The position numbers were made by a program, and so were the translations under genes. A DNA stretch of 63,993 nucleotides, filler included, from Streblomastix strix (taxonomy: Eukaryota), in NCBI GenBank assembly GCA_008636045.1. It is 3 parts of 3 records of this genome, joined end to end, with 100 filler letters (N's around TTAATTAATTAA, not from the genome) between each part and the next. Parts side by side here need not be neighbours in the genome. Positions count along the whole stretch, not along the records: positions 1 to 21,616 come from SNRW01000363.1; 2 more parts are not named here. One strand, 5' to 3'. The first letter of the stretch is position 1. Every line of letters begins with the position of its first letter. This document shows positions 1,495 through 34,180 of this stretch, in pieces. A model generated the notes under the pieces. It had not been told where the DNA came from and made no database searches. It saw only the letters and a list, made by a program, of their open reading frames with translations.

Positions 1495-2532
1495 ATGATG
1501 ATATAAGAGATTTAATCTGTAACATTCACTGAAAATTCTATTTAAGATGAATACAAAACTAAGCCATTGACAAGGAATTCATTATTCTTAATCAATGGGA
1601 ATCTGTATATAGTTGGTGCAGTTGGTTCAGGAAAAACTACTTTATTAAGTAAACTAATAGTAATTTATAAATAAAAAATTAATCCATTCATTTTAAATTT
1701 CTCCAATTTTGGTGTTGATGAGACTATGGCATTGAATTTAAACTTTAAGAATATAATCTTAACAAATATCAAATATGAAGAAACAATATATTTCTTACCA
1801 AATTTTGATGAAATCAAGTACATTGTAAAAGAAATCTATATGTACTGGAAACTAAGAGAAGTTAATGTACCTTATAAATCAGATTTCATATAATGAATGA
1901 AAGAAAAAATATTAATAATTAATCCAATTAAAGAATCAAAAAAAATTCATAAAAAGAGTATGTAAAACGAATTGCAGATTTATTTTAATAAGAATGTATC
2001 GATATAATTATCAAATACAGTGTATCAACAAAAATAATGAGATTTGCAATTCCAGCAATGATTCATAATGTATAATTCGAAAAAAAACTAATAATCGTAC
2101 CATAAAATACAAATGTTGACGCAGAATTAAAAGTAATAAAAATTCCAATACTATTTCATAGTTCTTTATTAAATTCATTGTTAATATTTGATGACATTGA
2201 GAGTAATGCTGATATTTAAAGATTCTCATCTGGTTTAGCTAAGACTATAACTCATTTAGTATCCGACTGTAGACATAGCAAAAAAACTGTTTTTTTTGTT
2301 GCTTAATGTCCAAGTTACTTATTCAAACCAGCAAGAATATTATCACATATTATGTGTTTAGGAGTTAATCTATCAGAAAGTGATTTGAAATTAGCTTATT
2401 AAGAGAATTCAATTTAGAATATTGACTTTGATGAATTTATGTTATTAAATGGAACTCCTAATAAATATGAATTCATAATTCTTAATAAATGGTAATCTCG
2501 TTATGAAATATTAAAGAACAAAAGATAAATGA
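1495..2532 (+). pseudogene. A32/FtsK-like DNA packaging ATPase (frameshifted)
   Basis: Walker A LYIVGAVGSGKTT (~1603-1641), Walker B SLLIFDDIE (~2175-2200), then DCRHSKK; internal TGA and frameshift near 2040. Confidence 0.8.
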
Positions 2533-2572
2533 AAAATAATGAAGTTGGTTTATTTTTGTTATTTGAGAAATT

Positions 2573-4429
2573 ATGCTGGCAAAGATCATGAGTTAATAAT
2601 AGATATAAGTGATTCGTTCATTAATTTAATCTGATTTCCGATATTTGATATAATATCATAAAAAATCATCAAGTTCCAGTAGTTAATTATCTGGAAATGA
2701 ATATTAATTGATAGTAGATGATTAAAACACATTATTAAATGCATTAAAAGATAATCCTTAAAATTTTGCTATGAAACTAGAAACAAATGGTGTTATGTCG
2801 TTAAAAAACTTGGATTTATTAAATAATGATTTCTTAGCAAAAATGACTACATTAGAATAAGAGGCAAATGTAATATAATAGACATTGGGAACTGCTACAT
2901 AAAATATTGGTGGTTTATAATAATAAATTGATGTAATTAATGATGAACTTTATAGATAAACATTTTTTAGAGGATACTATTTATTGAACACAGATATATA
3001 ATAATTAGATAACTCTGCCAATGGTGATTTTGCAATCTCTGCTGAAAGTGGAACAGTATGGATGTATGATTAGAATTGGTATAACAGTGCAGATATAGTT
3101 ACTGATTAAGTAACTCTTGCAAGTGATGCTACTCCATTTGCTGATAGTGGAACATTTGTTGCAGGAACTTCAAATGAGTATTCACGAAGAGATCATTTAC
3201 ATCCACTATAAGTATCCACATCTTTACCAGGTAAAGATACATCAGTTGGTAATGTAGAATATGCAAATACTTACGCTAAATCTGATAATTAGCATACAAT
3301 TCAAACTGTTGATTCAATATCACCGGCTTATACAGCAGATGGATCTTATGGTACAGTTGATTCATACGCGAGAAATGATCATTCTAATCTTTTTAAAGTC
3401 TAAACTAATGCTTCAATTATACTTGTAGTTAATGATGTCGGAAATAATGTTACTTCAGCATATTATTCAAGACATGATCATGTTCATCCATAGTAATTAA
3501 CTTACGATGGAAACATTAAAGCAACTAAATTCGTCAAAAAATGAGGATTAGCAACAGAAATATTATGTTTTAATGGTAATTCAACAACGGATTTCGTTAC
3601 AAAAACAACAACTTAAACAATTACAGGCTCGAAAACATTTAATAATAACATTATTATGGCAGGTTATAAAATACCTAATGGAACAAATTAATAAATGTTA
3701 ATGGCAGATGGATCAACGAAACCATTAACATTAATATAATAAGAATTTTTTATCACTTGGTCTATATAATATATTAAATTATGTATATTTGGTTCTTATA
3801 CTACTCCAATTGATATATCAGTCGAATTTACATGTAATTGTTGCACAAGATTTGGATTAATATAGTTTAATTAGGTTTATACAAGTGATGGAATAGGAAT
3901 ATATTAATACAAACTTTAAACTAATATGTCTTATGGAATGGATGTGTGCTATATATTATATTTTGGTACTGGTACTGATAGATATGATGAATTATGGGCA
4001 CGAGTATTAATGTGGTCTAACTAACTAATCTTCCAATAAACAAATTAGAGTATTGGAACAGACCCATTATATAACGTTCTTAATAGTGAAATGTAGTCCT
4101 AACTTCCAAGTGGTGCTAGTAGTTGCACAGCGTTATTTGCGAATTCATTTAATTCAGTAGTACATTTAAATTGTAGTTTGAATGATAATAGAGCAGGTTT
4201 AAGTATTGTACGATAAGTAAATGGAGCTGGAATTTATTTAAGTACTAAGCCAGCAACAGACGGTGGAGTTACTGCAAGCTAATGGAATATTATTACATCA
4301 CCAGAAAATTCAGCATAAAATCCATTAGGTTTTATAATTTGTTTAGGGACTGAAGCAACTACAAATATTCGAAGATTACGAATTAGTTCTGATGGAAATA
4401 CATTATCTTTCAATGGTAGAGTACTATGA
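2573..4429 (+). CDS. Putative virion fibre/spike protein, copy 1 (~618 codons, one in-frame TGA near 3542)
   Basis: Repeated YSRRDHLHP / YAKSDNQH / YARNDHSN / YSRHDHVHP units and a QTITGSKTF motif of phage tail-fibre type; Ser/Thr/Gly-rich; paralog at 21717-23538. Confidence 0.65.
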
Positions 4430-4534
4430 AAATTAAAATATCATCAATGTTTAATTTATTAACTTCGTTAGCAAACTGAAATACTCACGAAGTGATTAAG
4501 CTATTCCGAAGTAATCAGTTTATTTTTGTACCAA

Positions 4535-4984
4535 ATGACTAAACTGCTTAAATAGTTATTCACTGAACTTGCTAAAACAAACTATGAAGACGAAGATTTA
4601 ATAAAAACATCGATAAAGACACTATAAAATCTGCTGATGAAAAGTAAATAAGATTCATAACATATTTTACTTAAAGAAATAATAAGAATTATTAAGTAAT
4701 TCACAACATAATAGAATAAATTATAGTCAATGAAATAATTTGTTGATGATGAAGACTACAAAAATAAAATATATGGTGAGAATAATAAGTTCTATGCAAA
4801 TGAATATAATCAAATCAAGAAGAAGATGGATTTGAATCAACAACCATAATAAATAAAGAAATATATTATATCTGAAGCAACTGATGATGAAAAATAGATG
4901 TATAATTAATTTGTTACAGATGTAGATAATCAACTATTTTGAGGATACTACCAATTAACGCAGTTGAACATGTCTAAATAATGA
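4535..4984 (+). pseudogene. Conserved viral ORF X, copy 1
   Basis: MTKLLKQLFTELAKTNYEDED…MKQFVDDEDYKNKIYGENNKFYANEYNQIKKK; close homolog at 23535-24050; frameshift near 3' end. Confidence 0.6.
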
Positions 4985-5187
4985 ATATAATCTATGACTT
5001 CACAAGTTTTCTCCGATATAAGACCATATCTTTCGTTACATTCTTATTTTTTTTAATCATAGTACTATTATTGAAAATCATCTAATTCCTTATCATCAAT
5101 AAGTGCTTCAAATATTTTGAACACATCATAATCAGATGCGCAATATATTTATCCAAGAGATTGCACTAGTTAATACAATTTTTCCAA
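4930..5187 (-). pseudogene. Conserved small acidic viral ORF Y, copy 1
   Basis: Homolog of the intact ORF at 24002-24253 (…DVFKIFEALIDDKELDD…); ATG apparently lost. Confidence 0.5.
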
Positions 5188-5235
5188 AAACGCAGTCTAT
5201 TTTGAAGTATGAATGAATTTATAAAGAAATTTATA

Positions 5236-5314
5236 AAAACGAATCCCAAAGGGATTCATTACACCAATGAATCGACTTAATCCCGAAGGGAGTAGTGATG
5301 CTTAGCATCGTTGA
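5236..5314. repeat. 79-bp four-hairpin element, copy 1
   Basis: GAATCCC-AAA-GGGATTC, CCAA-TGAA-TCGA, TCCC-GAA-GGGA, GATGC-TTA-GCATC; direct copy at 7596-7674. Confidence 0.8.
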
Positions 5315-5340
5315 AAAATATTCATATAACAGAAAGCAAA

Positions 5341-5547
5341 TCAGCGTTTATTTAAGTATGAATCTACGTTTCCTGCAATGTTACCAACTGTACCCATAAT
5401 TCCTCCAATTCCAGGATGTAATGTACTTACTGGACCAGCTAATGCATCCATTACTTTACTTACTGTTGGTGCAACCCAACTTGCAGTTTTCTTAATATCA
5501 TTTAATATCTTGGAACCAAAATTTTTCAATCCTGTGAGGAATCCCAT
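5341..5547 (-). CDS. 68-aa amphipathic peptide resembling the adenovirus protein VI membrane-lytic N-terminus, copy 1 (intact)
   Basis: MGFLTGLKNFGSKILNDIKKTASWVAPTVSKVMDALAGPVSTLHPGIGGIMG…; paralogs at 18108-18313 and 24311-24517. Confidence 0.7.
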   Translation of the reverse strand: MGFLTGLKNFGSKILNDIKKTASWVAPTVSKVMDALAGPVSTLHPGIGGIMGTVGNIAGNVDSYLNKR

Positions 5548-5634
5548 TGTTATAATAGCTTTATTGCTTGAATGCTGATTTGATTAATAATAAAACTTAG
5601 CTACAGTTTTAATTAATATTCAAATAAACGTAAT

Positions 5635-7585
5635 ATGAGCCTCACAGCAAGTGCATATATACAAAAATTAGCATACGCATAACATTCAGATTATATTTCC
5701 ATATATTCAGCACTAAATGAAGTATTAAAGGCATAATCAATATATCCTTAAAGTCCTTCAGTAAGTAGATAACAATTCTTTGATTATCCAGTAACTTAAT
5801 TAACAAGTGATGGATAACGATATACACGCGCACTATTAGGTGAAAGTGGAACTGATATATGTTCAATGGTATAAACTTGTTAGGTTAATTGGTAAATAAC
5901 CATCCCAGCAAATAGATTAGCATTATAAATTAATAAAGCAGATTAAACTGCTGTAGCAGGTGCTACAACTGCTCTTTAAAGTGTAAACTTCACACGAAAT
6001 GCAGATTATATATTTAATTATACTCGAACTGTCACAGAAGGAGCAAATGCTGATACATAATAACCATTTAATACCACAGAACATATCAAAATTTGGCTTG
6101 GATACTCAACTGCTTGTTGACAATTTTAATAATTTGCCATTTGCAAAGATAATACAAAACTATTGTATACATCAATTTATGCAAGAGAATAAGCAGAGAT
6201 CTCAGCAAATTTATTAACTGACTTATGTACAAATAATTCAGTGAGCGTATCACCATTAGAATCAATAGTAGCTGGTAAAAGGTAATGTGTAATCTTCTTG
6301 GATATTCCAATAGATGCATTTAGCGCAACTGCAGGTTAATTCAATTATTTAATACCATACCCAATAAAATTTTCAGGAATATTTGATTTAAATCAATTGA
6401 ACCCAATTTTCAATTTATTTCCTGTTTTATCACGCAATTATGTATCCTAATGTCCATAGTTATGGACATAAGATTTCTTATAAGATCCGAAGATTGTATG
6501 GTTGAACAGGACTAATATGGTAACAAATGAACATCTTGCATATTAAATGATTCCTCCAAAGAAACATGATACAATATTCCTAAGAAATCGTGACAATGTT
6601 ACTTATGATTCATACACTGTTAGAATTGTTAATATGGAAGAAAAACCAAACACTGAAAAATTCCCTACCAATTCGTTTTCTCAAATAAAAGATGCAAAAT
6701 TTGATAAATTGAACATAAGCAATATAAGTTTCAATATGGAAAATGAAAAAGCAATAATAGATCTGATTTATACTCAAAAAATAATTAATTTTCTTACATA
6801 AATCATTCATACGTAATCTAGCAACTATCCTTTTGGAAGATTTGATGAAAATAGTAGTAATTTAAAAAGTATTATGTCATTTGCAAACATTAAAGAATTA
6901 TTTATTACATTTGCTATGAATTAATATCCAATATGGTTCTTCGCAGTGTTATTCTAGAAGTTCGATTTAATAAATGATTAGCGTCATCTAGTACCAGAAG
7001 CTTACACATCACTTAATTCAATGGCCTATGCATAAATGTTTTATTGTTTTATCAATTAAGATGTTATAGCCGCACTTTCAGATTTATATCATTCATTAAC
7101 TTTTGAAAATCTGTCAATAAATGAGTCAATAAACGATTATTGTGGAAAAATGGGTGAAAAATTAATAGATAGTGAAAATATTCTCTATAAAACTACGTTA
7201 TTTAGAGGAAATAGAGCAACAAAAGTGTATTTTCCTAATAAATTTATGCTTGCATGGAAGATAGCTACAGATGATTCGTTTATGAGGGTTACAATTCATC
7301 TAAAATGGGTGCTAGAACTAATATTCATGTAACGTTATAAGGAAGTTTAACTCATGGAATCAATAAAAACTCATAACTTAATCCTGGAGAAAATCAGAAT
7401 AATCACCAAATATTTTGTGCAACACGAAGTCATCTAAATTCTATATAAACATAGATAACTCCATTGATGCATTACCTTTGCGGTACTATCGTCAGAGTAA
7501 CATTTGATGATGCACCTGATCCATAAGTTCTGATTTTAGAAGTGATTGGAGAAATGGGAGGAACAATGGTTAGAGAACTGGATGA
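5635..7585 (+). pseudogene. Putative major capsid protein, copy 1 (~650 codons, few lesions)
   Basis: MSLTASAYIQKLAYAQHSDYISIYSA…VRVTFDDAPDPQVLILEVIGEMGGTMVR; strongly conserved in three copies; beta-rich; lies in a module with ATPase and fibre. Capsid identity is inferred from size and context. Confidence 0.6.
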
Positions 7586-7595
7586 AAAAATAACA

Positions 7596-7674
7596 AAAAC
7601 GAACCCCGAAGGGATTTGTTACGCCGATTCATCGGATTAATCCCGAAGGGAGTAGCGATGCTAAGCGTCACTGA
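7596..7674. repeat. 79-bp four-hairpin element, copy 2 (just 3' of the capsid gene)
   Basis: GAACCCC-GAA-GGGATTT, CCGA-TTCA-TCGG, TCCC-GAA-GGGA, GATGC-TAA-GCGTC. Confidence 0.8.
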
Positions 7675-8849: not shown

Positions 8850-9830
8850 AAGCAATTGGTATGTCATTTGGAACTGTTCTCGCTTGTGTCGACGCATGAC
8901 TCGATTCTGTTACGAAATCGCTGGACTTTATCAGAATCCTTGACAATATTGTTTGAATGATATCATCAGGCACCGTCATTGGTACATATATAGCACTTTG
9001 CTTAGTAAAGACCTCCATACCAGAGCTTATAGCATTCTTCCACTCATTTGCTGGGCTCGTTGCAACTTTAATCGGATTTGAGAACTTCAGACACATGATT
9101 AATGCCTCCATTTTGGACATCAGCGCCATTTCAATGGTCTGTTACACAGTTGATATGGGCTTTACATTGGATTTCGTACAATTGAGCCTTGGAGCAACGC
9201 TTAGTGGTCTTCTTGGAGTGCATCTAATCATGACAAATGGTGGAGCAGATATATCAATTGTCATATCAATGCTTAACTCATATTCAGGTTGCGCAACAGC
9301 TGAATCAGGATTTATGCTCAGCAACTTATCTCTGCTATTTTCAGGTGCACTTATTGGACCATCTGTTGCTATTTTGTCTTATGAAATGAGTCAATCAATG
9401 AATAATTCATTCATACTAATGCTTAATCTAATATATTAGTTCTTGGGTATGGAATGGCTGCAGGAAAAGCGTAACATGCAGTTGCTGCTATTACTAAGTT
9501 ACTGAGAAAACATGGATGTAATTTCAGAGTAGCTGTTAACCAAGTTGCTGGGAGATTATCAGGACATATGAATGTAATATTAGGTGGAGCCCTAGCCCCA
9601 TATGATATTGTGCTTGAAATAGACGAAATAAACAAAGATTTTCGGGCTACAGATGTGTCTATTGTACTGTGAGCGAATGATATGTGAATCTATCTGCATT
9701 GGATGATCAAACTTATTTCATTGCTGGAATGCCTATTACTGAATGTTGGATGAGCAAATTGACAAAAGTAGTCAAGAGTTGGAAAAGAATTGGGTATGCT
9801 TTTATTAATAATTCTATATTATTTGCAGAA
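8850..9830 (+). pseudogene. pntB: NAD(P) transhydrogenase beta subunit remnant (dII and dIII)
   Basis: PELIAFFHSFAGL, GGADISIVISMLNSYSG…GFMLSN, then GYGMAAGKAQHAVA, VAGRLSGHMNVIL, YDIVLEIDEINKDF, IAGMPITECW; internal deletions, frameshifts and TGA. Confidence 0.9.
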
Positions 9831-12067
9831 ATTTTAGTAACATTTTTCATTTTACTTTGTTATAACAATAAAACCAATAAAATAATCAATTAATTAAATA
9901 AATATTATGAATTTTTTATTGTATTTTAAGAATTATTAAAAAAAACCATTAATTAATGGTAAATTTAAATTGTAAGATTTTAATCAAAATAGTTATAAAT
10001 GAATAATATTAATATTATTTGTATGAAATTTTAATTAAAGTAATTTATTATTATTACTAAAAATATATTTACTATTGAATCAAATAAAAATATTTGTTTT
10101 TAAAAAAAGCAGTTTTTCTTAATTTAAGTATAATAATTTTATGTTAATTTAATTGATTTGTGTAATATTTAAATTATAAAAGTGATTTTTCTTAAAAAAT
10201 TATAAAATGGGCACTTTTCCTATAAATTATCTTGAAAAATATTAGCTGACCTCATATTCTGGAAAACAGTTGAATGTAATGTTATTTCTTGCTGGATATT
10301 AATAATATATATATTTTATTATGTTTGATGATTTAAGTTTCAATGGATTGAAACCAAATTAAATTAAATTGTAAAAATAATTGCCAAATGAAATAGATTG
10401 AATGGAAAACAAAATACAATTGAAAACGTGATTTTTTGAATTTTAGATCGTCTGGAGAGGATCCGAAATATTTACAAAAAAATTTGAAAAAAAAATAAAA
10501 AAAACTACAATTTTTAATTTAAGAATTGAAATTAAATATAATTAATTTTTATAATAAAATTTTAATATATAAAATCAAAAAATAATTAATTGTTTTTAAA
10601 ATATTTCTTAAATGAAACCGTTTTTAGTAAAATTTCAGAAAGAAATCAATTTTCAAAAATTCTGCACGTATTAAATTATACAAATATTTGTGATAAAATT
10701 TTAATATATATTTATTAAAATTAAATACTAATATAACTGATAAATCATAATCAAATTAGGCAAAATTTAATTGACACGGCGCCCTCTATCCCTATATTAT
10801 TGGATGAACTTGAATATAAATGAGGAGAATAGGACAATAATAATATGATACAGTTAATAAGATATAATACAAATGATTCATTCTCTTAATAAGCAACATT
10901 TACATATCATGTATATTGAACTTCTTTACTTTAACTGATTATAATTTATAATTCTAAATGAAATTTCTTTCTGTCTAAACTCACATCATAACCACTCGAT
11001 GATCAATAAAAAAATGATAAAAATATTAATTTGTTAATAGAATTTAAATTTTATTTGAGTTTATATTGTTAATACATAATAATATTAGAAAAATTGTATA
11101 GTTGTAATATAATAAATCGTGCTGAGTATGCATTTATAATAAATTCTACGTTTGTCTGACTTATTAGAGAAAATTCCCGATTTATAATATTTGCGATATT
11201 TTTTCCTTTCTATTATTGGATTTTCAATGATCCGCTTATTAAAATTTTCATTTATTGAATGAAATACAGTTTCTAATTTCTTTCTTCTTCTTCCTCTGGA
11301 TTTCTTGTAATTAGTATCATTACTAGACTAATCTAATAGTTTTAAAAAATTAGGGAAATAAATGAAATTATGAATAATTAATAAAAATTAATAAATAATT
11401 GTAATTATTTGTGAATATTAAATTTTTTAAAATCTAAATAAAAATAATGAAATTTATACAATTTCTTAGATAATTCTTGATTGAATTATTTAATTCTAAT
11501 GCACTTTATGCTTCAAGCTTTTATAACGATGGTCCTAAATATAATTAAATATAAAAATTATTATTTTATTCGAAGTATTAGTTTTAAAATATGAATATAT
11601 CATAATAATCAAAATTAAACAAACTTAGAAAGCGAAATATATCTGGTGGTTATATTTTTTCTCTTCTCATCGACATTAACTATGCAGTATCTATTTTTTG
11701 AATATAATATATAACCAAAATCATAAAAAAATTCAAAAAAATAAAAAACATCTAAAAAATAAGTAATGTTATTGAATAATAGAAAAAATATTTATAAAAT
11801 AAATTTTATATTTTGGAAAATAAATAATAATTTTTATTATAATCAAAAAAATTAGTATAGTCAATATAGCATTTCGCAAAATAACATATTTTTGTGTTAT
11901 TCGTAGTAGTACCATAGTAATTAATTCCGTGTCTTATAAAATAAGGTAGTATCATAGTTATATTAGCAAACCTGTATTGTTGTAATGTAATAATTTGTAC
12001 TGGGTGTACCACAGCAAATAAAATGGCCCAAGCTCGTACAGAGTGGGTTCTAAAATATTTCTGGGCT

Positions 12068-12156
12068 AGACGGGCTTACACAGGTACAAGTTAAAATATG
12101 TAGTACATATATAGTATATGTATAAATGATAGTGCAAAATGTTCATAATTGCATAT
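12068..12156. repeat. Left arm of ~88-bp inverted repeat
   Basis: GGCTTACACAGGTACAAGTTAAAATAT…ATAGTGCAAAATGTTCATAATTGCATAT is the near reverse complement of 19024-19110. Confidence 0.85.
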
Positions 12157-12800
12157 GGTTAGAAGAAGTATTTAAAACAGCCGAAGAAATAAAATAAGAT
12201 AATATGTATTGCAATAACACAGACGACGAATGTAGGCATGATGATCCGGATATTCCATATAAAATTCTTGTACCAGTTGTTAGTTTCAATTCTGCTCACT
12301 TTGATATGATTTTCGTATTACCATATCTAACAAATAAAGATTGGCACATAGTTTAAGGAGAATATCTTGGTGATTTCTCTCATATCAAACGAGTAGAAGT
12401 CAGGAATAAAATAAGTAATGTTAAGATATAATTCTTAGATATTGGTATGTTCATGATTCAAATGTCATTAAAAGATGCTGTTGAATCATTTGATGATGGT
12501 AATAAATAAGATTTGAAAGGGATGTTTCCCTATACTACATTCAACTATGATAATTGAGATTAAATACTATCAAAATCTTAAACATTTGCTTAAGCTGATT
12601 TCTTAAATTTGCACAAAGAATAAACCTTATCTGATAAAAATTACTAAATTTATCTCGATGACGGCAAAAATTTCAAAAATAGATGGGAATATATGTAGTT
12701 TTATAACGAATAGAATACTAAAATAATAACAAAACTTATAAATATCTTAAATTAAATGAACTTCAGTAATGGAATTGATATATTTGCAGGTAAGTATAGC
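12156..12800 (+). pseudogene. Protein-primed DNA polymerase B fragment (exonuclease region)
   Basis: WLEEVF…VPVVSFNSAHFDMIFV (Exo II)…KGMFPY…RWEYMQFYNEQ (Exo III); colinear with the pPolB at 36080-40584. Confidence 0.85.
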
Positions 12801-13149
12801 GCATCATATGGCTAAATTAAATTGGCAGTAAAATGAGAAAAAATTAAGGTAAAATGGGGGTAAAATGGGGTGTGGTGGAGTATCTGAATGTCTGTAAAAT
12901 ACGAAATAAGAAAATCGTAATGAAGATGAAAATTGGATATTGGAAAATGGGAAATTTGGAAATTGGAAGGGCGATAGGGGCTCGGCGCTTGAAGGGTTAA
13001 GGTCGTTTTAAAATAAATATTTGATATGAAATTAGCGCATATCAATATCCAGACTTAGAATTTTGGGTTTTGGACGATTAGGAAAAAATGTTTTGATGAA
13101 ATTTACGGGTTAGTTACAGATTACAGTTGAAATTAAAGGATAATTTGTT

Positions 13150-14147
13150 AAATTACTTTTTTTTACTTTATTTTCTTTTTTTTTAACTAATTTTTCTTAT
13201 ACAGTTGATATACTTATTAGTTATGATGTTGGAATATATTTTATCTTCGTTTATAAAAGTTTTTTACCAATTATTAACTTTTTACTCGCTGCAGAGTTCT
13301 CGGTCTTCATATATGCTTATGGATTACTAAATTAGTCGTATTTATAACCTGTTTCATGAGTTATGAACGGTGATTTTCCTTATGTATCATTGATAGGAAG
13401 TCTTTCCCAAACTAATGCACCAATATCATACACTGTATTCAAATTTTAAGATGAAAGAATGACGCTAATTAGCTTCTATTTCTATTTCTCCGTTAATTTC
13501 TCTTGTGATAGTGTAAATTTCGATTGTTCATCTGGAAACAGAGAACTATCACCATAATTTTCATCATTTTATGTAGGATATTCTTCATTCAATCTTTGAT
13601 TCTCTTTTTCTTTTAATCTTGGCGATCCGAAATTCATTTTCTCAACATTTTGTTATTCTTCTGTTATAACAGGCTTTCTAGAACATAAATTCATAAACAG
13701 TTAATTTATTCTGGCGTTGATATTTTAATCATATCTCCCAACATTCTCTATATATTTTTCTTGAATGAGTTATCCTTCATTATTTATTCTGATTTATGTT
13801 CCAAATAAATCCTATAAAAGACTGTTCGGAAAATTTCTCCTATTCACTATTCTTCTTGGTTTATGGTCGTGTAAAACATTTACGCCGACAAACGCAGAAA
13901 TTTTCGAGATTGATGGATCAATTTGTTGAATTTTCCTTTCAATTTAAGATAATTTCTTAGAATTCAAATTAGTTCTTAATTTTATTCCGTGATACTTCAT
14001 AATCAAAGGAACTTTAGTGAATTATGCTGTTGATCCTCTTCTCTTATGATATTATCGTCTATCGGCAGCGTCTATCATATGCTCCATCCATTCAGAATCT
14101 GATGTACGAGGTGTAATTGACAGTTCTTTGAATGATTTCCTTGACAT
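13150..14147 (-). pseudogene. Basic hypothetical viral protein (frameshifted)
   Basis: MSRKSFKELSITPRTSDSEWMEHMIDAADRRQYHKRRGS… long frame in TAR=Gln code; 3' end approximate. Confidence 0.45.
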
Positions 14148-14374
14148 TTACTCTTTAGAGCGCTAACAAAACATTTGCGTTTAGCGACGAGCTTCGCAGT
14201 CTAAAAGTTAGTATTTTACAATTAGACAAAGAAAATCATTTGAAAAAACATGACAAGGGACACTATAGTTATAATTTCTTCCTATATCTTGCATATCGTA
14301 TATTTTACCAATTTATTCTCCAAAAATAATCTTTGATATGAAGTATATATATTATATTTTTTCTTTCTTAATAT

Positions 14375-14596
14375 ATGCGTGTTATAATCGAAGAATTTCC
14401 TATTTATTCTAATTTTTTATCGCCACTATTATGTGTCGCCACTGAATGCGATCCTGAAATTGAGTTAAGATTCATCTTACGTTAGTATAATAAGCGTCTT
14501 ATGATGGAATAACTTAAGGAAATCGTAAAAATTGCATAAGAAACTAATGAATAGGATGCTTCATTAAAATTGATACAGCTTCTCAACGAACGATGA
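14375..14596 (+). CDS. Small hypothetical viral protein
   Basis: MRVIIEEFPIYSNFLSPLLCVATECDPEIELRFILRQYNKRLMMEQLKEIVKIAQETNEQDASLKLIQLLNER*. Confidence 0.45.
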
Positions 14597-16348: not shown

Positions 16349-18050
16349 TCATCCACTTCTCACCATTGTTCCTCCAACTTCACCTATAATTTCAAAATTT
16401 TAAACTTATAGATCCGGTGCATCATCAAATGTAAAACGTAAGATAGCATCACAAAGATAATGCATCTACTGAGATATCGATGCGTTTGTTTGCGTATGAT
16501 ACGATCTTGTTGCAACAAATGTTTCTAAATTATTTTTATTTTCTGGTGGATCACATCTAATCAATGAACTATCAATTATATCAGGAGATAAGCTTCCTTT
16601 CAATGTCACTTGAATATTAGTACTAGCACCCATCTTAGATTAATAATATACGCTCATGAATGAATTATCAGTTGCCATCTTCCACACTAACAAAAATTTA
16701 TGAGGATAATACGCTTTTTATGCATTACGTTCTCAATATAACGACATATTATAGAAAATTTTCTCTCTATCCTGAAATCCAGCACCTAAACATCCATAGT
16801 AATTTCCATTGGAATCATTGATAGATTAATTCTAGAAATTTACTGAATAATACAAGTCTAATGGTGCTGAAACCTGATCATATTCCACGAAATATTCAAA
16901 CATTCTATCCCAAACCATTGGATTCAATGATGTATATTCTTATGGAAGGACGTATCATTGATCAGTAACCAAATCAAATTTTTTAAATAATACAGGAAAC
17001 TTCAAAGGGGGGTATTGATTCATTGTAAATGTTATAAACATTGCTTTTATATTAGAATATGACATAATACTCTGCATTTAACCACCTGTAGCAGTAAATC
17101 CACTAAATGGAAAATTGTTTGATTATGAACGTAATATTTATGTAGGAAAATTTAATTATTTTGCATTTTTATCATATCAACGATCGCTTCTTCATTTTCT
17201 ATATTGAAATACATATTATGAATCTCTAATTTTTCAAATATTGCATCTTTAATTTATGAAATTGAATTTATTGGTTTTTTACATCACCCAGTTTACCTTC
17301 CATATTCACTAATCTTACAGAATATTTTTAATACGCTATGCTATTCCCCCAGTCTAATAAAAATAATATATCAGGTTTCTCTGGAGGAATAATTTGATAA
17401 GCTAAATGATTATTTATTATTAGGTTGTACATATTTAGCCAAACTACTTTCAAATCTTACAAGTAGTCTTAAGTTCACAGCTATAAATATATCGATGCAT
17501 AATTACATGTAAGTACTGGAAATGAGTTGAAAATATGATTTAATAGAATTAAATCAAGAACTCCAGCAATTGTTATAGGATATGGTATTAGATAGTTAAA
17601 TCTTCCAGCATCAGCACCAAATGCTGAAATTGGAATTTCCAAGAAGATTCCACATTCTCTTTTTCTTCAAACTATTGATTTTAATTGTGAAACATTTTCA
17701 GAATTGTTCGTACACAGATCATTTAATGAATTTGCTGCACCTTCTGTTAAATTCAATTTCAAAGCTAATCTATTTCCTGAAATCGTAATTTACCAGTTCA
17801 TTTAACAAGATTATACCATTGAACAGGTGGCTGTACCTCTTGCACCAAGGGGATCTCTTGTATACCTTTGTCCATCACTCGTCATTTGGGTTCTTGGCTA
17901 ATCAAAGAATTCTTACCTGCTTAATGTAAAACTCTGTGGATGAATCGTAGCAGACCGCAGTACCTCTGCAATAGCTGAATAAGTGGACACATAATCGGAA
18001 TGCTAAACTTTTGCTAATTTCTGTAGGTAATCACTTGCTTAAAAACTCAT
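16349..18050 (-). pseudogene. Putative major capsid protein, copy 2 (internal deletion of roughly 250 bp)
   Basis: MSFQASDYLQKLAKVQHSDYVSTYSA…RFTFDDAPDLQVQNFEIIGEVGGTMVRSG*; colinear with 5635-7585. Confidence 0.6.
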
Positions 18051-18107
18051 GTTTTGTTATTGTATAAAAAAATTAAGCCTTAAATTTAATTCTAAGACAA
18101 ATACAAT

Positions 18108-18313
18108 ATGGGATTCTTCACCGGATTGAAAAACTTTGGCTCAAAAATATTGACCGGCATAAAAAATGTGCATCTTGGATCGCCCCAAGTTTACACAAGA
18201 TAATGGGTGTTTTGGGCTGTCCCGTATCAACATTACACCCAGGAATCTGTAACATAATGGGAACTGTAGGTAACATGGCTGGTGCTGTCGATAGACATTT
18301 AAATAAACTGTGA
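18108..18313 (+). pseudogene. Protein VI-like peptide, copy 2 (1-bp frameshift)
   Basis: MGFFTGLKNFGSKILTGIK…ASWIAPSLHKIMGVLGCPVSTLHPGICNIMGTVGNMAGAVDRHLNKL*. Confidence 0.7.
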
Positions 18314-18372
18314 TAATAAAAATGTAATAAAATATGAAACATTGTATTAAATTATTTTTGCCAAATTCAAAA

Positions 18373-18831
18373 ATGACAGAATAATAAATTGAGAAAAATT
18401 AGTTGGAAATATTAACTGTGGACAATAAATATGAAATTATGACAGATGAACCATATAAGATCAGAAAACGATAAAATTAATTTATTCTAGTCACTAGAAT
18501 AAACTAATATGGCTATGTTGTAATTTAGTTAAGTAATGTTGAATGTATATTACATCGTATTTTAGCAATATAATTCATTCCTAATCCTGAAAATTTATCC
18601 GATATGGACCATGTAAATAGTAATAGATCTGATAATCGACTTGAAAATTTACGATGGGTTACTCGCTCTTAAAATTCAAAGAATAATACTTCACAAAGAG
18701 GTATTTACAACAAAATTTATTAAAAATATTATAAAACATTTTTTCGATATAAATTCAATTGTTTCAATATACGTTTTAAATAATATATTAAATAAGCATT
18801 ATAATAATTAAATATGTGCTTGTAATAATGA
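18373..18831 (+). CDS. HNH homing endonuclease (HNH_3 type)
   Basis: LHRILAIQFIPNPENLSDMDHVNSNRSDNRLENLRWVTRSQN. Confidence 0.85.
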
Positions 18832-19023: not shown

Positions 19024-19110
19024 ATATGCAATTATGAACATTTTGCACTATCGTTTATACATATACTATATATATAATATATTTTAACTAGTATCAGTGT
19101 AAGCCTTTCT
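19024..19110. repeat. Right arm of ~88-bp inverted repeat
   Basis: Near reverse complement of 12068-12156. Confidence 0.85.
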
Positions 19111-19351: not shown

Positions 19352-19660
19352 TCAAGTGTTAGCGTCTTCGTTGATGTCTTTTTTATTGTCATATTTTTTA
19401 ATTAATTCATTTATTGCTATCAAATCATTAATATTTACGATTATTTTTTTTAGGTTTTTAATTATTAATAATTACATATCATTAACTTATGAAGCATAAT
19501 TTGTTTAATTTTATTTGTATCTAATTCTTGCATTTTTGCGTTGCTCTCTTGCAGCAATCGTTGCCTATTCTTTATCGGTATATTTTTTTGATCTTCCTTA
19601 TTTCGCTAAATTTATTGAATCTATTTATGTTGATTCATTGATTGCTTGATTATCTTCCAT
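19352..19660 (-). CDS. AT-hook-like small basic protein (cassette B)
   Basis: MEDNQAINESTQIDSINLAKQGRSKKYTDKEQATIAAREQRKNARIRYK…; homologs at 27506-27887 and 33724-34161. Confidence 0.65.
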
Positions 19661-19710
19661 TTTAATTTAAATTAAAAAATGAAAAATAAATAATAATTAT
19701 AAATTTTATT

Positions 19711-21125
19711 TCATCTAAATAAAAATTCTGTTGCATAATATTCTGGAATAGATTCTTTATTTTCACTAACATATTTACAATAATCTGAAGGTAATTTGAT
19801 TATATTGATTTAAAATGAATGATTCAATAATTTACATAAACCATTACCATTTACATACCTAATGATCTCCGCTAACTGATTAAAATTAATTTTTTATTTT
19901 ATAAATTATTAATATATTTTTTAATAATCAAGAAGTAATAAAATTATATTTCCAGCCTTAAATGATAATATGCCCTGTTTTCGTTATCTTGCTAATTTTC
20001 TCTCTAATTTCTTCATTTATGAACGTATATATTATCTTTCTAAATCTCTTGATAATTGAACTTAATATGAGCTGTACTCATTTTGAAGCTCAAGATGTGG
20101 AGTATCATTGTATATATTAACAACTATTTACAAGCATTTATTCGTTGAAAATTAATTAAACTTATAACTAAACGCATTCTTAATTGTGCGAATAACTGAA
20201 TCGACAACTCTATTATGATTAGTGAATTTTGAATCAGTGAAATAACAATTAATTTAATTCTTTGAACAAAATAAAGCAAATAAAGAGCCATTAAATCTTT
20301 TCTCTTCATCTCCATGAACAATTTTTATATAATAATTTTTAATTAATTTTCTTAACTATCAAACAATCTATGCAGCTGATTTTTCTATCAAATGATATAC
20401 GAGTAAATATTTCATGTTAATATTTATGCAAAATAAATACATGCATAGTTTTTCTATTTATATTTATTTCATTTTTTTCATATACAGCGATATCATATTC
20501 AATGTTATTTTCTTGCAACGTTTAATCAACAGAAAAGACTATATTTATTTCCCAACTCCCTAACTTTAGAGAGAAATAAAGCCGTTGTAATCTTTATAAC
20601 GGTTTTGATTTATAATCTTTCACTGCTAATTATACATCTTATTCAGTAGCAAAATATTTTTATTTATTGATTTTTTCATACAATTTTAATTTTGTTTTGA
20701 AAGGAAAATAAGGAACGTCTGTTTGATATTCTGATTGATTCTATGATGAACTTGACAATGAACTTGACGATGAACTGGATTGATGACTCGATTATTATAC
20801 ATCTTTATCCATTTATTTATTTTTTTTTTCCTCTATTTTATAGGTTCATATTACGATTAACCTGAAATATAAAAATAGTTCCAATTTGCAATTGTTCTTT
20901 TTTAAAAATTAATTTATCAGCTTTTTCTATCGTAACATCAAGTTATTTTTTCTATGTAAATTAAAATATATTCCTTATAAAATCTGATAAATCCATTCTG
21001 TATTAAACTCTATATATTTTATCTTCTATATCTTGTTATACTTCAAATTCGTATTCATTTCTTTAATAATAATCACCAGCTTAAATCGAAAAAATATCAT
21101 AATATTAAATGTTTTCATTTTTCAT
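19711..21125 (-). pseudogene. Retroviral-like (rve) integrase, cassette B
   Basis: LGSWEINIVF…YLFCININ…VHGDEEKRF…HNRVVDSVIRTIKN…IYNDTPH; frameshifted. Confidence 0.8.
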
Positions 21126-21204
21126 TATATTTCATGCAAAAATAAATCAATTAATGTTCAATTCATGTCTAAAACTCAGCCTGCGACTAATGAAATCAAT
21201 TAAC

Positions 21205-21372
21205 AATATGGCAGAATGGTAGTCTGGTAGCAGTTTTTGATGAAAGTTTCTGATTCGGAACACTCGGATCACTCAAAAGTCATTCATTAACGAATCCATT
21301 TCTTCGTATCAAAGTAACGTTTTTCAATAACTATCAATTATATAATTATCTGAACTCAATTACTAACCGTTA
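21205..21372. repeat. Repeat upstream of integrase B
   Basis: GGCAGAATGG…CAGTTTTTGATGAAAGTT…CAAAAGTCATTCATTAACGAA matches 27925-28035 directly and 25780-25960 inverted. Confidence 0.8.
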
Positions 21373-21485
21373 GTAGTGAGCAAACAGGGGATCAGCCCTT
21401 AGAAAAAATTAAAAATTATCGCTATCAATAATCTAATCAAATTAACGCACAAAGCAACGTATATCAATATTCAGGACCATTGCAC

Positions 21486-21616: not shown

Positions 21617-21716
21617 NNNNNNNNNNNNNNNNNNNNNNNNNNNNNNNNNNNNNNNNNNNNTTAATTAATTAANNNNNNNNNNNNNNNNNNNNNNNNNNNN
21701 NNNNNNNNNNNNNNNN
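21617..21716. other. Artificial contig linker
   Basis: N-run with central TTAATTAATTAA. Confidence 0.95.
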
Positions 21717-23538
21717 ATACGTTCTTTATTATAATCAGATTTCCAATATTTGATATAATATCAGAGGAAATCATCAAATTTCAGCAGCTAATTATCTGGA
21801 AGTGAATATTAATTGACAGTTGATGATTAAAACTCATTAATATTTGAACCAATAGATAATATTTAGAATTATGCAATGAAACTGGAAACTAATGGTATTA
21901 TGACGTTGAAGAATATAAATTTATTTAATAATGATATCTTAGCAAAATAATTACATAAGAATAAGAAGTTAATGTAAAATAATAAATATTGGGAATTGCA
22001 ACTTAAGATATTGGTGGTTTATAATAATAAGTTAATGTAATTAATGAAGAACTTAATAGATAAACACATTTTAGAGGATACTATTTATTGAATACAGATA
22101 TATAATAATTAGAAAATTCTGCCAATGGTGATTTTACATTCTCTGCTGAAAGTGGAACTGTATGGATGTATGATTAGAATTGGTATAACAGTGGAGATAT
22201 AGTTCCTGATTAAGTAACTCCTGCAAGTGATACAACACCAAAAGTATCAATTGTAGGGGGAGTAGTAGGAACAAGTACTGAATATGCTAGAGGAGATAAT
22301 TAACATCCTCTATAAGTTTCTGATGTTTTACCTGCAGAAGATACTGCTAATACTTATGCTAGATCAGATCATATTCATCATGTAAATTTAAGTAGAAGTG
22401 TTCCGAAAAGATATACTGGAACTGGAACAGCTGGTATATCAAATGTATATGCTAGATCGGAACATTAACATCCATTGAATGTTGTTTCAACTACTGCAAA
22501 TGTACCACTGGTAAATGCTACTGCTGCAGCTAATGGAACTAGTGATTATTACTGTAGATCAGATCATGTTCATCCTCAATAATTAACATATACTGGACCA
22601 TTAACTTCAATAATGTTTATTAGGAGTGATACTTAAGCAACTGATGTATTGCCAGCTAATGGTGATTCAAAACCTATATCAGACATAGCAGGTGATGTAT
22701 TTGTTAAAATAAGTGGATAATCAGAATATTCAGTTGCAGGTAAATTAAAACTAACAGATAGCACTGAATCATTTGATGATTTAGCTATCAATTAATATAC
22801 AACCAAATGCACTGTCTAAATGGCGTTCGTTAAGAAAAGTGGTAAAACATTATAAGAAATCTAAGGTGTATTACGACATAGTGGAGATAATGAAGAAGAA
22901 AGCGATGATGAAGATTATTTGCCTAGGGGAAAGTTATTAAATGGGTTCATTAATCTATACTAGGATTAAATAATGGATGGTAAAAAACGTTCAAAAATGA
23001 TTAATTTTGGATATAACCGGCAAGTAGTTCAGAACTATTAATATTATTTAGTAATAACTTATCTAATTTTTGTTGTAAATAAATGCTAAATGAAAATGAA
23101 CTAATTTTTTATCTTATAATTCGGCATAGATAAATTAAAATTATTCATTAACTTTCGCAATACTGCTTTATCAGGAATTTAAGCCAACGTAAAAATACAT
23201 TAACAATTTGTTTAAATGCTGGCAATCCTACTTCATTTGCATGCATCATTTCAGGTAATATTTAAATAAACCCTACAGCTACTAGTTATGATGATGAGTT
23301 GAGAATAACCAGATCTAATCAAGATACAGGTAATGCAACGATTTAGTTAGGATGTAGTAGAACATCTAACACTGGTGCTATATTAGGATAATGGTCAATA
23401 TTTACACCATCAAGTAGTTCTATAAATAATCCTTAAGGTTTTGCAATAGCAGTGTCATCTTAAGCTGGTGATAATACTAGAGGATTACAAATCAGTGCTA
23501 ATGGAAATACATTAAAATTCAATGAAAGAGCACTATGA
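21717..23538 (+). pseudogene. Putative fibre protein, copy 2 (5' end in gap; frameshifts)
   Basis: Same N-terminus (HFRGYYLLNTDIQQLENSANGDF…SAESGTVWMYDQNWYNSGD), YARSDHIH and YCRSDHVHP repeats, same C-terminus (RGLQISANGNTLKFNERAL*), different middle. Confidence 0.65.
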
Positions 23539-24050
23539 AAACAACTTCATAATTTAATTTATTTTTGCAACCTATGTTTGTTCTAACTGAAAGTCGGACA
23601 ACAAACGTGTCAAAACCATTAAAATTGTTATTCAATGAGCTCCTTAAATCAAATTACGAAAATGAAGATCAAATTAAAACATTAACTGAAACTCAATAAT
23701 TTCTGTCAATCAAAGATAAATCAGAATAGTAGCTTGTATTGCATAAAGAATTTGTAAGAATTAGCAAATAATTCACAAATTCATAATGTAAATTGCAGCA
23801 AATGAAATAATTCGTTGATGAAGATGACTATAAAAATAAAATATTCGGTGATAACAACAAATATTATGCAAATGAATATAATCAAATCAAGAAGAAGATA
23901 GATATGAATCAACAACTATAATAAATAAAGAAATATACTATATCTGAAGAAAATGATGAAAAAAAATTGATATATAATTATTTTATTTAAGATGCTGATA
24001 ATCAATTGTTTGAGAATATTATTAATTAACTTAACATATCCAAATAGTGA
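23535..24050 (+). CDS. Conserved viral ORF X, copy 2 (intact, ATGA overlap with fibre stop)
   Basis: 171-aa open frame; MKQFVDEDDYKNKIFGDNNKYYANEYNQIKKK shared with copy 1. Confidence 0.65.
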
Positions 24051-24253
24051 ATATAACATATAACATCTTGTACTTATTCAATAATTATATCAAATCTATC
24101 ATTAAATTCTTATTGTTTCTATTCATGGAACTATTTTTGCTCTTCATCTAATTCCTTTTCATCAATCAGTGTTTCAAATATCTCAATCACATCTAAATCT
24201 AACGCATTATGAGTTTTGCCAAGAGATTCAGCAAATTTGTACAATTCCTCCAT
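24002..24253 (-). CDS. Conserved viral ORF Y, copy 2
   Basis: MEELYKFAESLGKTHNALDLDVIEIFETLIDEKELDEEQKQFHEQKQQEFNDRF…; 83 aa, syntenic with copy 1. Confidence 0.55.
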
Positions 24254-24310
24254 CTTTATATTCAGAATAAGAAAAATATTTATAATACATTCTTATAAAT
24301 AATTTTATTG

Positions 24311-24517
24311 TCATCTTTTATTTAAATGCCGATCAATTCCGCTAGCAATATTATCAATCGTACCCATAATCTAACCTGCACTTGTACGTAACATGCTTAC
24401 TGGTCCGCTAAGCGTTCATATTATTTTATGAAGCGTCGGCGCAACCCATGAAACTGCCTTCTTTTTTCCGGTCAATATTTTTGAGCTAAAATTCTTCTAT
24501 CCAGAAAAGAATCCCAT
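24311..24517 (-). pseudogene. Protein VI-like peptide, copy 3 (internal TGA)
   Basis: MGFFSGQKNFSSKILTGKKKAVSWVAPTLHKII*TLSGPVSML…DRHLNKR*. Confidence 0.65.
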
Positions 24518-24603
24518 AATTATTGTATGTTTTCTTGTTTATGCGTTTGTTTGAATAATAAAACATACGCGTTATTTTAAATTATAAACAAATCGTACGC
24601 AAA

Positions 24604-24870
24604 GTGAGTTTCTCAGCAAGTGATTACCTTCAGAAATTAGCAAAAAATTTAACATTCTGACTATGTTTCAATGTATTCTGCAATGTCAGAAGTGCTAAGA
24701 TAAGCATCGATTCATCCATAAAGTTTTACATTGAGTCGACAAGAATTCTTTGATCAGCCTGTTTCTCAGATGACAAGTGATGGACAAAGATACACGCGTG
24801 CTCCCCTTGGTGCAAGAGGTAATGCAGCATGTTCAATGGTGTAGTCTTATTAAGTTAACTGTTCATCATC
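24604..24870 (+). pseudogene. 5' fragment of putative major capsid gene, copy 3
   Basis: SFSASDYLQKLAK…QHSDYVSMYSAMSEVL…QMTSDGQRYTRAPLGARG; truncated by terminal-repeat sequence. Confidence 0.7.
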
Positions 24871-25579: not shown

Positions 25580-26042
25580 ATATAAAAATAAAATATTCAT
25601 TTAAACGATGAGACATTCAAAAAATCATTAAATGGTGTATGAACTTAGGCTCAAAATATTATTCTTAGTTAAAGAAATAAATAAATGTCAAAAATTTAAA
25701 TAAATAAAGTTGGTTTATCATCGATTCATAATAAAATGGTTGCTCTTGAAAATTAATACTGTGCTCCGTTCCTGTATATTAACGGATAACAATTGAACTC
25801 AGATAATTATATAATTACTAATGATTAACACTAATGAAAACGTAATTTTGGCAAGAAGAAATGGCTTCGTTAATGAATGACTTTTGGCTGGATTGGGTGG
25901 ATTGGGTGGATTGAGTCAAAAACTTTTATCAAAAACTGCTGCCAGCCTGCCATTCTGCTAGATTGTTAATTGATTTCATCGGCCGCATGCGGAGTCATCG
26001 ACATGATTTCAACATAAATTGTTTTATTTTTGCAAGAAATAA

Positions 26043-27453: not shown

Positions 27454-27505
27454 AATAAAAATAAAATTTTTTTTATATATTTTTTAATTTTTTATCGTAT
27501 AATAA

Positions 27506-27887
27506 ATGACAACTATTGAGACAATCAACGAGACAAGTCCCAACGGGGCTGTCTAAAGACTAAACGAGACATTCAATGAAACAACATAAACAGATACATT
27601 TAGTTCAGCAAAATAAGGACGTCCAAAGAAATATACCGATAAAGAATAGGCAATAGTTGCAGCAAGAGAGCAACGCAAAAATGCAAGAATTAGATATAAA
27701 TATAATTAAACAAATTATGTTTCAAAAGTCAATGACATGCAATTATTGATAATCAAAAATCTTAAAAAAAATTATCGTGAATATTAATGATTTAATAGCA
27801 ATAAATGAATTGATTAAAAAATATGACAATAAAAAAGACATCAACGAAGATGCTAATGATTAAATCAACGAACAAATCGACGTTTGA
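27506..27887 (+). pseudogene. AT-hook protein, cassette C (1-bp frameshift)
   Basis: AKQGRPKKYTDKEQAIVAAREQRKNARIRYK. Confidence 0.65.
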
Positions 27888-28341
27888 AGCTAATGGTTTT
27901 ATATTTTTATTTATTTTCTCATTTCTGGCAGAATGGCAGGCTGGCAGCAGTTTTTGATGAAAGTTTTTGACTCAATTCACCCAATCCACTCAATCCAGCC
28001 AAAAGTCATTCATTAACGAAGCCATATCTTCGTGCCAATTTCATAAATTTCATTGATATTTTATGACTCAATCCACCCAATCCAGCGCAGCCTAAACATC
28101 AAACAAATATATATTATGTTCAAAACTCACTAATGATTTCAATAATGACATCTCCAATAAATTTTAGGTTTCCGTTAATGAAATTCATCAACCAACTCCA
28201 TTATCCAAATCCATCAACCAACTCCATCAACATTCCTATGTAGTTATGAGAATATGGAGAGTGCCATACGTTCAAAAATCAACATCATTAATCAACTTCA
28301 TTAATCTACTTCAACATTCATATTCATTAATCTATTTCAAT

Positions 28342-33290: not shown

Positions 33291-33444
33291 CCACATCAGA
33301 ACACACATTAGAGAAAAGTCTACCCTGTGCAACTATGTGCAACGCTATGCAGCTATCAGTTTGGATAGTTAGCCTCAATTCGACACATATCTTGAATATT
33401 TATATTAACTCACACATTATTCCTAGTATTAACGCAAAAATAAA

Positions 33445-34161: not shown

Positions 34162-34180
34162 TTGCTTTTAACAAAAATAG

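What the first reader, a model, noticed from the sequence alone, without database searches (positions are those of the whole stretch)
1495..7585. Repeated virion module of a divergent Polinton-like virus family
Seen: the order fibre > ORF X > < ORF Y < pVI-like | capsid-like > recurs at 21717-24870, and the pVI-like/capsid pair recurs at 16349-18313 beside a penton-like gene. Genes are intronless and tightly packed, with ATGA overlaps at 1495-1498 and 23535-23538. Known: packaging ATPase plus major and minor capsid is the Polinton/virophage morphogenesis set. Inference: the ~650-aa protein is a double jelly-roll capsid of a poorly described lineage. I could not recognise it from sequence alone.
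Basis: partly seen in the sequence, partly recalled or inferred. Interest (0 to 1): 0.85.

Follow-up and report, generated by a model that had tools for sequence, protein, structure and literature searches.

The report
New capsid lineage of oxymonad viruses
Broken copies of a viral gene set, written in the unusual genetic code of their likely termite-gut protist host, encode a predicted double jelly-roll capsid protein that likely marks an unreported group of Polinton-like viruses, with intact relatives in metagenomes.

Summary
The module is real and read in code 6 (TAA/TAG=Gln); the host is likely Streblomastix, an oxymonad. It occurs three times at 65-86% DNA identity, but copy 3 lies beyond an artificial contig linker, so the copies are dispersed, and all three are broken.

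The ~650-aa gene has 244 database clusters; all 120 listed are S. strix proteins. An intact homologue gives a moderate model (pLDDT 53) whose listed Foldseek PDB matches are all double jelly-roll capsids. No Pfam or PDB sequence match exists. Ten divergent relatives (21-31% identity) and three standard-code metagenomic contigs extend the family. Contig L002 keeps the capsid, ATPase, 69-aa amphipathic peptide and penton-like gene intact.

Bellas et al. 2023 already reported S. strix endogenous viruses, all in one Trichomonas-seeded capsid cluster. This family appears separate from it (indirect tests only).

Best reading: decayed proviruses of an unreported Polinton-like lineage, probably replicated by pPolB. 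The penton fold, fibre and pVI-like role are inferred, not shown.

The parts
1495..2591 (+). A32-like (FtsK/HerA) packaging ATPase, split into two frames at ~1893
   Evidence: Walker A GAVGSGKT, Walker B LLIFDD, then CRH..VAQ (reading these as A32 motifs is recalled knowledge); weak P-loop Pfam hits; orthologous to L002 ATPase, E 2e-14 and 2e-11
2573..4429 (+). Fibre-like protein with four Y-x-R/K-x-D-[HN]-x-[HS] repeats; in-frame stop at 3542
   Evidence: repeats; 86% copy at 21717; no Pfam/PHROG hit at E<=0.01; only weak likeness to the L002 fibre (tblastn E 0.005; phmmer E 0.034)
4426..4942 (+). ORF X, unknown, frameshifted near its start
   Evidence: 64% aa identity to copy 3; third-position bias
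4930..5340 (-). ORF Y, unknown
   Evidence: 52% aa identity to copy 3; third-position bias
5341..5547 (-). 68-aa peptide with a cationic amphipathic N-terminal helix (MG..KNF.S); candidate membrane-penetration protein
   Evidence: conserved in 3 window copies and in L001/L002 (E 2.6e-6; alignment); hydrophobic moment 0.51, reached by 1.0% of 5000 shuffles
5635..7585 (+). Major capsid gene, copy 1 (predicted double jelly roll); stop at 6118, frame change ~7285
   Evidence: 80-85% identity to intact P0002; fold
11937..12785 (+). [quoted passage not shown]
   Evidence: tblastn of pPolB homologues, E 4e-56; 37% identical to the pPolB on the second contig
12804..14471 (-). Long open frame of unknown function between the pPolB fragment and the penton-like gene
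   Evidence: 555-aa frame; no Pfam hit of note; no match in L001-L003
14635..16116 (+). Penton-like (candidate minor capsid) gene, broken; fold not established
   Evidence: 66-73% identity to P0121; homologous to the L002 701-aa gene, E 1.6e-7; model pLDDT 31; Atlas score 0.76, uninformative
16349..18050 (-). Major capsid gene, copy 2, heavily broken
18108..18313 (+). Amphipathic peptide gene, copy 2, frameshifted
18301..18831 (+). HNH endonuclease beside copy 2
   Evidence: PF13392 E 1e-10
21617..21716 (.). Artificial contig-joining linker (not biological)
   Evidence: N44-TTAATTAATTAA-N44, repeated at 43315-43414
21717..24870 (.). Copy 3 on a separate contig: fibre (to 23538), ORF X (23535-24050), ORF Y (24005-24310, -), peptide (24314-24517, -), capsid 5' fragment (24604-24856)

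Best explanation
These are decayed, dispersed copies of a virion gene set that likely belongs to an unreported lineage of Polinton-like viruses, integrated and amplified in an oxymonad genome. Shown: code-6 genes, multicopy, broken here, with intact homologues in S. strix and standard-code orthologues side by side on a metagenomic contig. [quoted passage not shown] Inferred from how adenoviruses, virophages and polintons work: capsid trimers build an icosahedral shell; the penton-like protein and fibre sit at the vertices for host attachment; the A32-like ATPase pumps in the linear DNA; the 68-aa amphipathic peptide is packaged and breaks the endosomal membrane at entry. Replication is probably by a protein-primed polymerase (two linkage observations). 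Integration by an rve integrase is assumed, not shown. Having TAA/TAG read as Gln ties this branch to its host.
For: Fold: all 32 Foldseek PDB rows shown are double jelly-roll capsids or scaffolds, 13 at E<=0.001; BFVD best hits are adomavirus LO7 3e-6, an adintovirus capsid 6e-6 and a pithovirus MCP 7e-5; 10 of the top 11 rows of an independent search of 48,161 chains are double jelly rolls aligned over model residues ~75-645 in 9 of those 10; Atlas neighbours at 0.95-0.97 include Capsid_N/NCLDV and Sputnik MCP clusters. Module: on L002 the capsid, peptide, ATPase and penton-like orthologues are intact and clustered. Expansion: 244 clusters at 90% identity, 12 of the 120 listed full length; S. 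strix copies form one clade, 100/100. pPolB link: fragment at 11937-12785 on the same contig; 1 of 12 pPolB hits (P0131) shares contig length 4856 and a locus tag two away from capsid P0085. Separate from the known group: own Atlas cluster (87 members) apart from the Parabasalia cluster (522); 0 of 6 locus tags and 0 of 4 family motifs found in the Bellas 2023 supplement.
Against: The capsid model is mediocre (mean pLDDT 52.7, 318 of 649 residues below 50), TM-scores are 0.12-0.19 and Z-scores 5.7 or less, in the range of merely common arrangements. The penton fold could not be modelled. L001-L003 (up to 13.4 kb) show no pPolB, integrase or helicase match, and 11 of 12 pPolB hits share no contig with a listed capsid. 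No protease gene was recognised in the window or on L002. The pVI likeness is not significant. The Bellas supplement is held cut, and 63 of 213 profile hits were not listed, so a link to the known group is not excluded. UniRef already labels 12 of the 120 homologues 'Major capsid protein'.
Confidence: 0.62

Rival explanations
1. The family is a divergent branch of the Metamonada (MMN) Polinton capsids already reported from S. strix, so the finding is known.
For: Same host, same use of the host code, also endogenous and abundant (PMC10120064 passages; 820 hits). The Parabasalia cluster is the nearest Atlas neighbour at 0.97.
Against: All 820 S. strix hits sit in one cluster found by PSI-BLAST from Trichomonas capsids. 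Its printed 562-aa representative looks unlike this family by eye (not aligned). Our tags and motifs are absent from the held supplement. All 147 new representatives listed align to this family's S. strix members. The two ATPases in the window are unrelated in sequence (E 0.1), as expected for two element families.
Confidence: 0.17
2. A helper-dependent (virophage- or satellite-like) virus with this capsid and no polymerase of its own; the pPolB pieces nearby are nested neighbours.
For: L002 has 13.4 kb with no recognised replication or integration gene and direct repeats at its left end. The window is crowded with other mobile elements.
Against: Two separate S. strix contigs put pPolB near this capsid. 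L002 may be incomplete. No virophage capsid Pfam match.
Confidence: 0.12
3. Fragments of a larger nucleocytovirus-like genome (for example egovirus-like) rather than a ~15-25 kb element.
For: Best VIA matches are poxvirus scaffold and PBCV-1 capsids, though tied within 1 Z with others. Egoviruses are linked to gut metamonads (10.1101/2024.03.23.586382, passages).
Against: No RNA polymerase or other giant-virus core gene among 38 window proteins scanned. The linked polymerase is of the protein-primed type. No NCLDV capsid Pfam match.
Confidence: 0.06
4. A cellular repeat family, not a capsid.
For: No sequence match to any viral family or PDB chain; weak model.
Against: Four fold searches of one model and the Atlas converge on double jelly rolls; intronless gene set conserved with a packaging-type ATPase in standard-code metagenomic contigs.
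Confidence: 0.03

Closest known systems
Metamonada (MMN) endogenous viruses of Trichomonas and S. strix (Bellas et al. 2023, PMC10120064; passages, Methods section 13 and supplement searches seen)
   Same: Host, host genetic code, high copy number, double jelly-roll capsid recognised only by structure.
   Different: Appears to be another capsid family: ~650 aa against a 562-aa representative, separate Atlas cluster, tags and motifs not in the held tables, ATPase unrelated to the other one in the window.
Polintons/Mavericks (Polintoviricetes)
   Same: Capsid + candidate minor capsid + A32-like ATPase; integrated; probable pPolB.
   Different: No sequence match of the capsid; no protease found; integrase, terminal repeats and target-site duplications not tied to this family.
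Adintoviruses and MELD viruses (Starrett et al. 2021, PMC8502044; passages seen)
   Same: Mid-size double jelly-roll viruses with fibre genes and membrane-active accessory genes (cupiennin-like; genes annotated as similar to adenovirus protein VI).
   Different: Only a fold-level link (BFVD E 6e-6 to 4e-4); no sequence link found.
Adenovirus protein VI and dicistrovirus VP4
   Same: The peptide profile picks pre-protein VI residues 40-52 (E 1.6) and mud crab dicistrovirus VP4 (E 0.13); cationic amphipathic helix.
   Different: Not significant; 68 aa against 250 aa; no Pfam match. Analogy only.
Rumen virophages (Yutin et al. 2015, PMC4409740; passages and supplement search seen)
   Same: Gut-associated, divergent capsid, Polinton-type pPolB.
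   Different: They have virophage-type capsids and a protease and are reported to lack a penton; this family's motifs NQLNP and KNFGS are absent from their supplement (cells cut at 400 characters).

Membership tests
Polinton-like viruses (Preplasmiviricota, broad sense) | [quoted passage not shown] | tested here: met
   moderate model, weak scores, consistent ranking
Polinton-like viruses (Preplasmiviricota, broad sense) | A32-like packaging ATPase | tested here: met
   motif level only plus PHROG packaging hit of the L002 orthologue, E 1.3e-5; Pfam Pox_A32 not hit
Polinton-like viruses (Preplasmiviricota, broad sense) | [quoted passage not shown] | tested here: inconclusive
   conserved candidate, model pLDDT 31, Atlas 0.76, no PDB match
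Polintons/Mavericks (Polintoviricetes) | Protein-primed family B polymerase in the same element | tested here: inconclusive
   fragment on the same contig and 1 of 12 linked hits; none on L001-L003
Polintons/Mavericks (Polintoviricetes) | rve integrase in the same element | tested here: inconclusive
   integrase-type genes at 19714-20845, 26324-27450 and 34184-35716 belong to neighbouring elements; none on L001-L003
Polintons/Mavericks (Polintoviricetes) | Terminal inverted repeats and target-site duplication | tested here: inconclusive
   none bounding the module; copies are partial
Polintons/Mavericks (Polintoviricetes) | Ulp1-like maturation protease | tested here: inconclusive
   none recognised; elements incomplete
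MMN group of Bellas 2023 | Capsid clusters with Trichomonas capsids at 25% identity over 30% length | not testable with these tools
   no MMN sequence was held; indirect tests point to a separate family
Virophages (Virophaviricetes) | Virophage-type capsid detectable by sequence profile | tested here: not met
   no Sputnik/V20 Pfam match for 15 alignment members at E<=0.1 or for P0002/P0034 at E<=1; no PDB match at E<=10
Adenovirus protein VI family | Significant sequence homology | tested here: not met
   no Pfam family at E<=1; PDB profile hit E 1.2-1.6
Adenovirus protein VI family | Cationic amphipathic helix | tested here: met
   4 of 5 peptides exceed 96-99% of shuffles; the copy-3 peptide does not
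Adenovirus protein VI family | Packaged in the capsid and lyses membranes | not testable with these tools

The most novel reading that the evidence does not exclude
An unrecognised order- or class-level group of double jelly-roll viruses of anaerobic protists, invisible to current capsid profiles, with a stand-alone 68-aa membrane-penetration peptide that is a minimal counterpart or relative of adenovirus protein VI. One branch adopted the Streblomastix code and expanded to hundreds of copies beside the known Metamonada Polintons, while standard-code relatives persist intact.
Probability: 0.3. Interest if true: 0.75.

Novelty: new variant of a known kind. Interest (0 to 1): 0.57.

Why it matters
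A 2026 survey states that Metamonada Polinton-like elements remain ungrouped and need more genomes (10.64898/2026.06.19.733378, passages). This adds what appears to be a second, sequence-distinct capsid family from that host group, with a host on one side and intact metagenomic relatives on the other. It would give a new capsid profile for screening, raise the published viral share of the S. strix genome (820 hits from one cluster), and supply a short testable candidate for how Polinton-like viruses cross membranes.

Tried and rejected
Standard code and codes 4/10, TAG=Q, TAA=Q: rejected. Tandem arrangement of copies 1 and 3: rejected by the linker. Assembly error as the cause of the capsid stop at 6118: not settled; 13 contigs of run X1 and 3 of X2 differ there, which fits a copy-specific lesion, and copy 1 has a long branch (0.24 against 0.03). 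Sequence searches of the capsid in Pfam, NCBIfam and PDB: nothing significant. IMG/VR: 0 relatives in 7 pattern scans. JGI metagenomes: 0 of 38 pattern matches with the S. strix alignment, 3 of 185 with the divergent pair. Penton single-sequence model uninformative and not used for a fold search. Three ~210-aa paralogues on L002: no Pfam, PHROG or PDB hit of note. Expression: no RNA holder listed, which is no evidence either way. Literature: Streblomastix + Polinton gave only PMC10120064, as did Streblomastix + capsid + endogenous; Polinton-like + oxymonad + major capsid protein gave 0; searches listed nothing describing this family. Subscription papers, bioRxiv supplements and the Bellas Figshare files were not seen.
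Full report
Setting. The window has almost no ORFs under the standard code but 80 frames of 200 aa or more when TAA and TAG read Gln. In the first capsid frame, 31 of 37 Gln codons are TAA or TAG. All 120 listed homologues of the capsid are Streblomastix strix proteins at 44-81% identity, so the host is this oxymonad or a near relative. No whole genome is held. Two 100-nt spacers with stops in all frames (21617-21716, 43315-43414) are most simply read as contig linkers, which makes the window three joined contigs.

Observation. The module recurs as described, and mismatches between copies pile up at third codon positions. Copy 3 begins at the first base after a linker, so the copies are dispersed. 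All are broken: against intact homologues, capsid copy 1 has one stop and one frame change, copy 2 four stops, frame changes and a deletion, copy 3 only residues 1-84; the ATPase, fibre and penton-like genes are also interrupted. Contigs of three DNA runs from one termite-gut sample cover the module with thousands of variant pieces (3923 laid for X1), as expected for a high-copy family.

The capsid. Intact natural copies exist: 244 clusters at 90% identity, and 12 of the 120 listed are 640-660 aa with conserved ends. I folded P0002 (80-85% identical to copy 1) with 49 S. strix homologues. The model is moderate (pLDDT 52.7, pTM 0.55) with two beta-rich cores. Foldseek on the PDB gave 13 matches at E<=0.001, and all 32 rows shown are double jelly-roll proteins: iridovirus, Sputnik, adenovirus hexon, ASFV p72, PBCV-1, mavirus, vaccinia D13. 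BFVD gave adomavirus LO7, adintovirus, pithovirus and MELD capsids. A search independent of Foldseek ranked double jelly rolls in 10 of the top 11 rows, best Z 5.7, rmsd 5.1, 246 aligned; the second look gave 50 of 50, best Z 5.5, rmsd 5.8, 264 aligned. These scores are low and come from one model; the case rests on their consistency. The Atlas adds separate support: neighbours at 0.95-0.97 are capsid clusters. By sequence the protein matches nothing in Pfam, NCBIfam or the PDB, even with a diverse profile at E<=10.

A wider family. A profile search of 1.84 billion representatives gave 213 hits, 150 listed. Of 147 new ones, 11 are under 40% identical to any named S. strix copy; 10 of these are long proteins at 21-31% identity to P0002. 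In a 25-row tree the 14 S. strix rows form one clade (100/100) on a long branch. The sources of the divergent proteins could not be looked up. A scan of JGI metagenomes found three loci (3 of 185 pattern matches). L002 (13.4 kb, standard code, uninterrupted ORFs) carries a 666-aa capsid, a 69-aa peptide right behind it, a 299-aa ATPase, three small paralogues, a 701-aa gene and a 542-aa fibre with a phage tail hit. Its capsid (E 9e-41), ATPase (2e-14), peptide (2.6e-6) and 701-aa gene (1.6e-7 to the penton-like gene) are homologous to the window's genes; fibre, ORF X and ORF Y are not clearly so. IMG/VR gave nothing in 7 scans.

Accessory genes. The ATPase has Walker A and B and a CRH..VAQ stretch, which I read from memory as A32-like. 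The penton-like gene is conserved but its fold is untested. The fibre label rests on four His-containing repeats and position; recalled likeness to phage fibre repeats is a lead only. The peptide keeps MG....KNF.S in window and metagenome copies and is amphipathic in 4 of 5 cases. Its four-sequence profile picks adenovirus pre-protein VI residues 40-52 (E 1.6) and a dicistrovirus VP4 (E 0.13) among 8 PDB hits at E<=10, which also include unrelated enzymes. That is an analogy, not shown homology. Membrane-active accessory genes, including protein VI-like ones, are already noted in adintoviruses and MELD viruses (PMC8502044, passages).

Replication. A pPolB fragment lies at 11937-12785, 1.9 kb from the penton-like gene on the same contig. 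One of 12 relatives of that fragment sits two locus tags from a capsid of this family on a contig of the same length. Against this, L001-L003 show no polymerase, integrase or helicase match, and no repeat-bounded element was found. The pPolB, integrase and second ATPase at 33-43 kb belong to another element on another contig.

What is known. Bellas et al. 2023 (passages, section 13 and supplement searches seen) report endogenous viruses in S. strix that use the host code, with 820 capsid hits in a single cluster found from Trichomonas capsids. That much of the finding is known. This family seems to be another one: a separate Atlas cluster, 0 of 6 locus tags and 0 of 4 motifs in the held supplement. 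The file is cut, its cells stop at 400 characters, and I could not align an MMN capsid directly, so this is not proven. Automatic UniRef names already of 120 homologues capsids. A 2026 preprint leaves Metamonada elements ungrouped; another on these viruses has no mention of Streblomastix or Metamonada in its main text. Rumen virophages differ in capsid type. The searches listed under Tried and rejected found no description of this family.

Verdict. A real, decayed, multicopy virion module. Double jelly-roll capsid: about 0.93. Distinct from the reported S. strix group: about 0.8. Whole best reading, including a pPolB-type life cycle: about 0.62. It is a new variant of a known kind of element; interest 0.57.

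Noticed in passing
window 33404-43175: A second, different Polinton on the middle contig: rve integrase 34181-35716 (E 9e-4), frameshifted pPolB 36080-40584 (PF03175 E 3e-5) with a Cys/His HNH-like insert at 37277-38086 as described for pPolB2 (10.1101/2023.08.22.554363, passages), and an ATPase at 41970-42743 unrelated to the one at 1495. Possibly the known MMN type; its capsid is not in the window.
   Followed up: partly
window 29573-32531: Frameshifted primase-like plus D5-like SF3 helicase gene (DUF5906 E 3e-19; PHROG primase E 7e-27). Not tied to either capsid family.
   Followed up: partly
window 25848-28038 and 19359-21375: A ~2.2-kb element with 115-nt terminal inverted repeats (95%) and an integrase 42-50% identical to the Polinton integrase at 34184; a second copy at 78% identity lies on the first contig. 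Looks like a small transposon built on a Polinton-type integrase.
   Followed up: partly
window 53968-54870: A ~900-nt imperfect palindrome (443-nt arms, 84%, 17-nt spacer).
   Followed up: no
window 5227-5314 and 7587-7674; 12073-12156 and 19024-19105: An 88-nt direct repeat (80%) placing a piece of the ORF Y region right after the capsid stop, and an 84-nt inverted copy (90%) of part of the pPolB fragment on the far side of copy 2; signs of local rearrangement.
   Followed up: no
L002 5380-7293; motif at 3808, 7290, 9553, 12875 (+) and 44, 1334 (-): Three tandem ~210-aa paralogues ending in I.ID..W with no database hit, and a recurring GTAATCGYC motif, several at gene ends, absent from L001, L003 and the window.
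   Followed up: partly
window 8957-9505, 49771-50256, 60908-62057, 63367-63993: Host-type genes: transhydrogenase beta fragment, P-type ATPase fragment, short-chain dehydrogenase, and a flavodoxin-like frame (the last by eye only).
   Followed up: no
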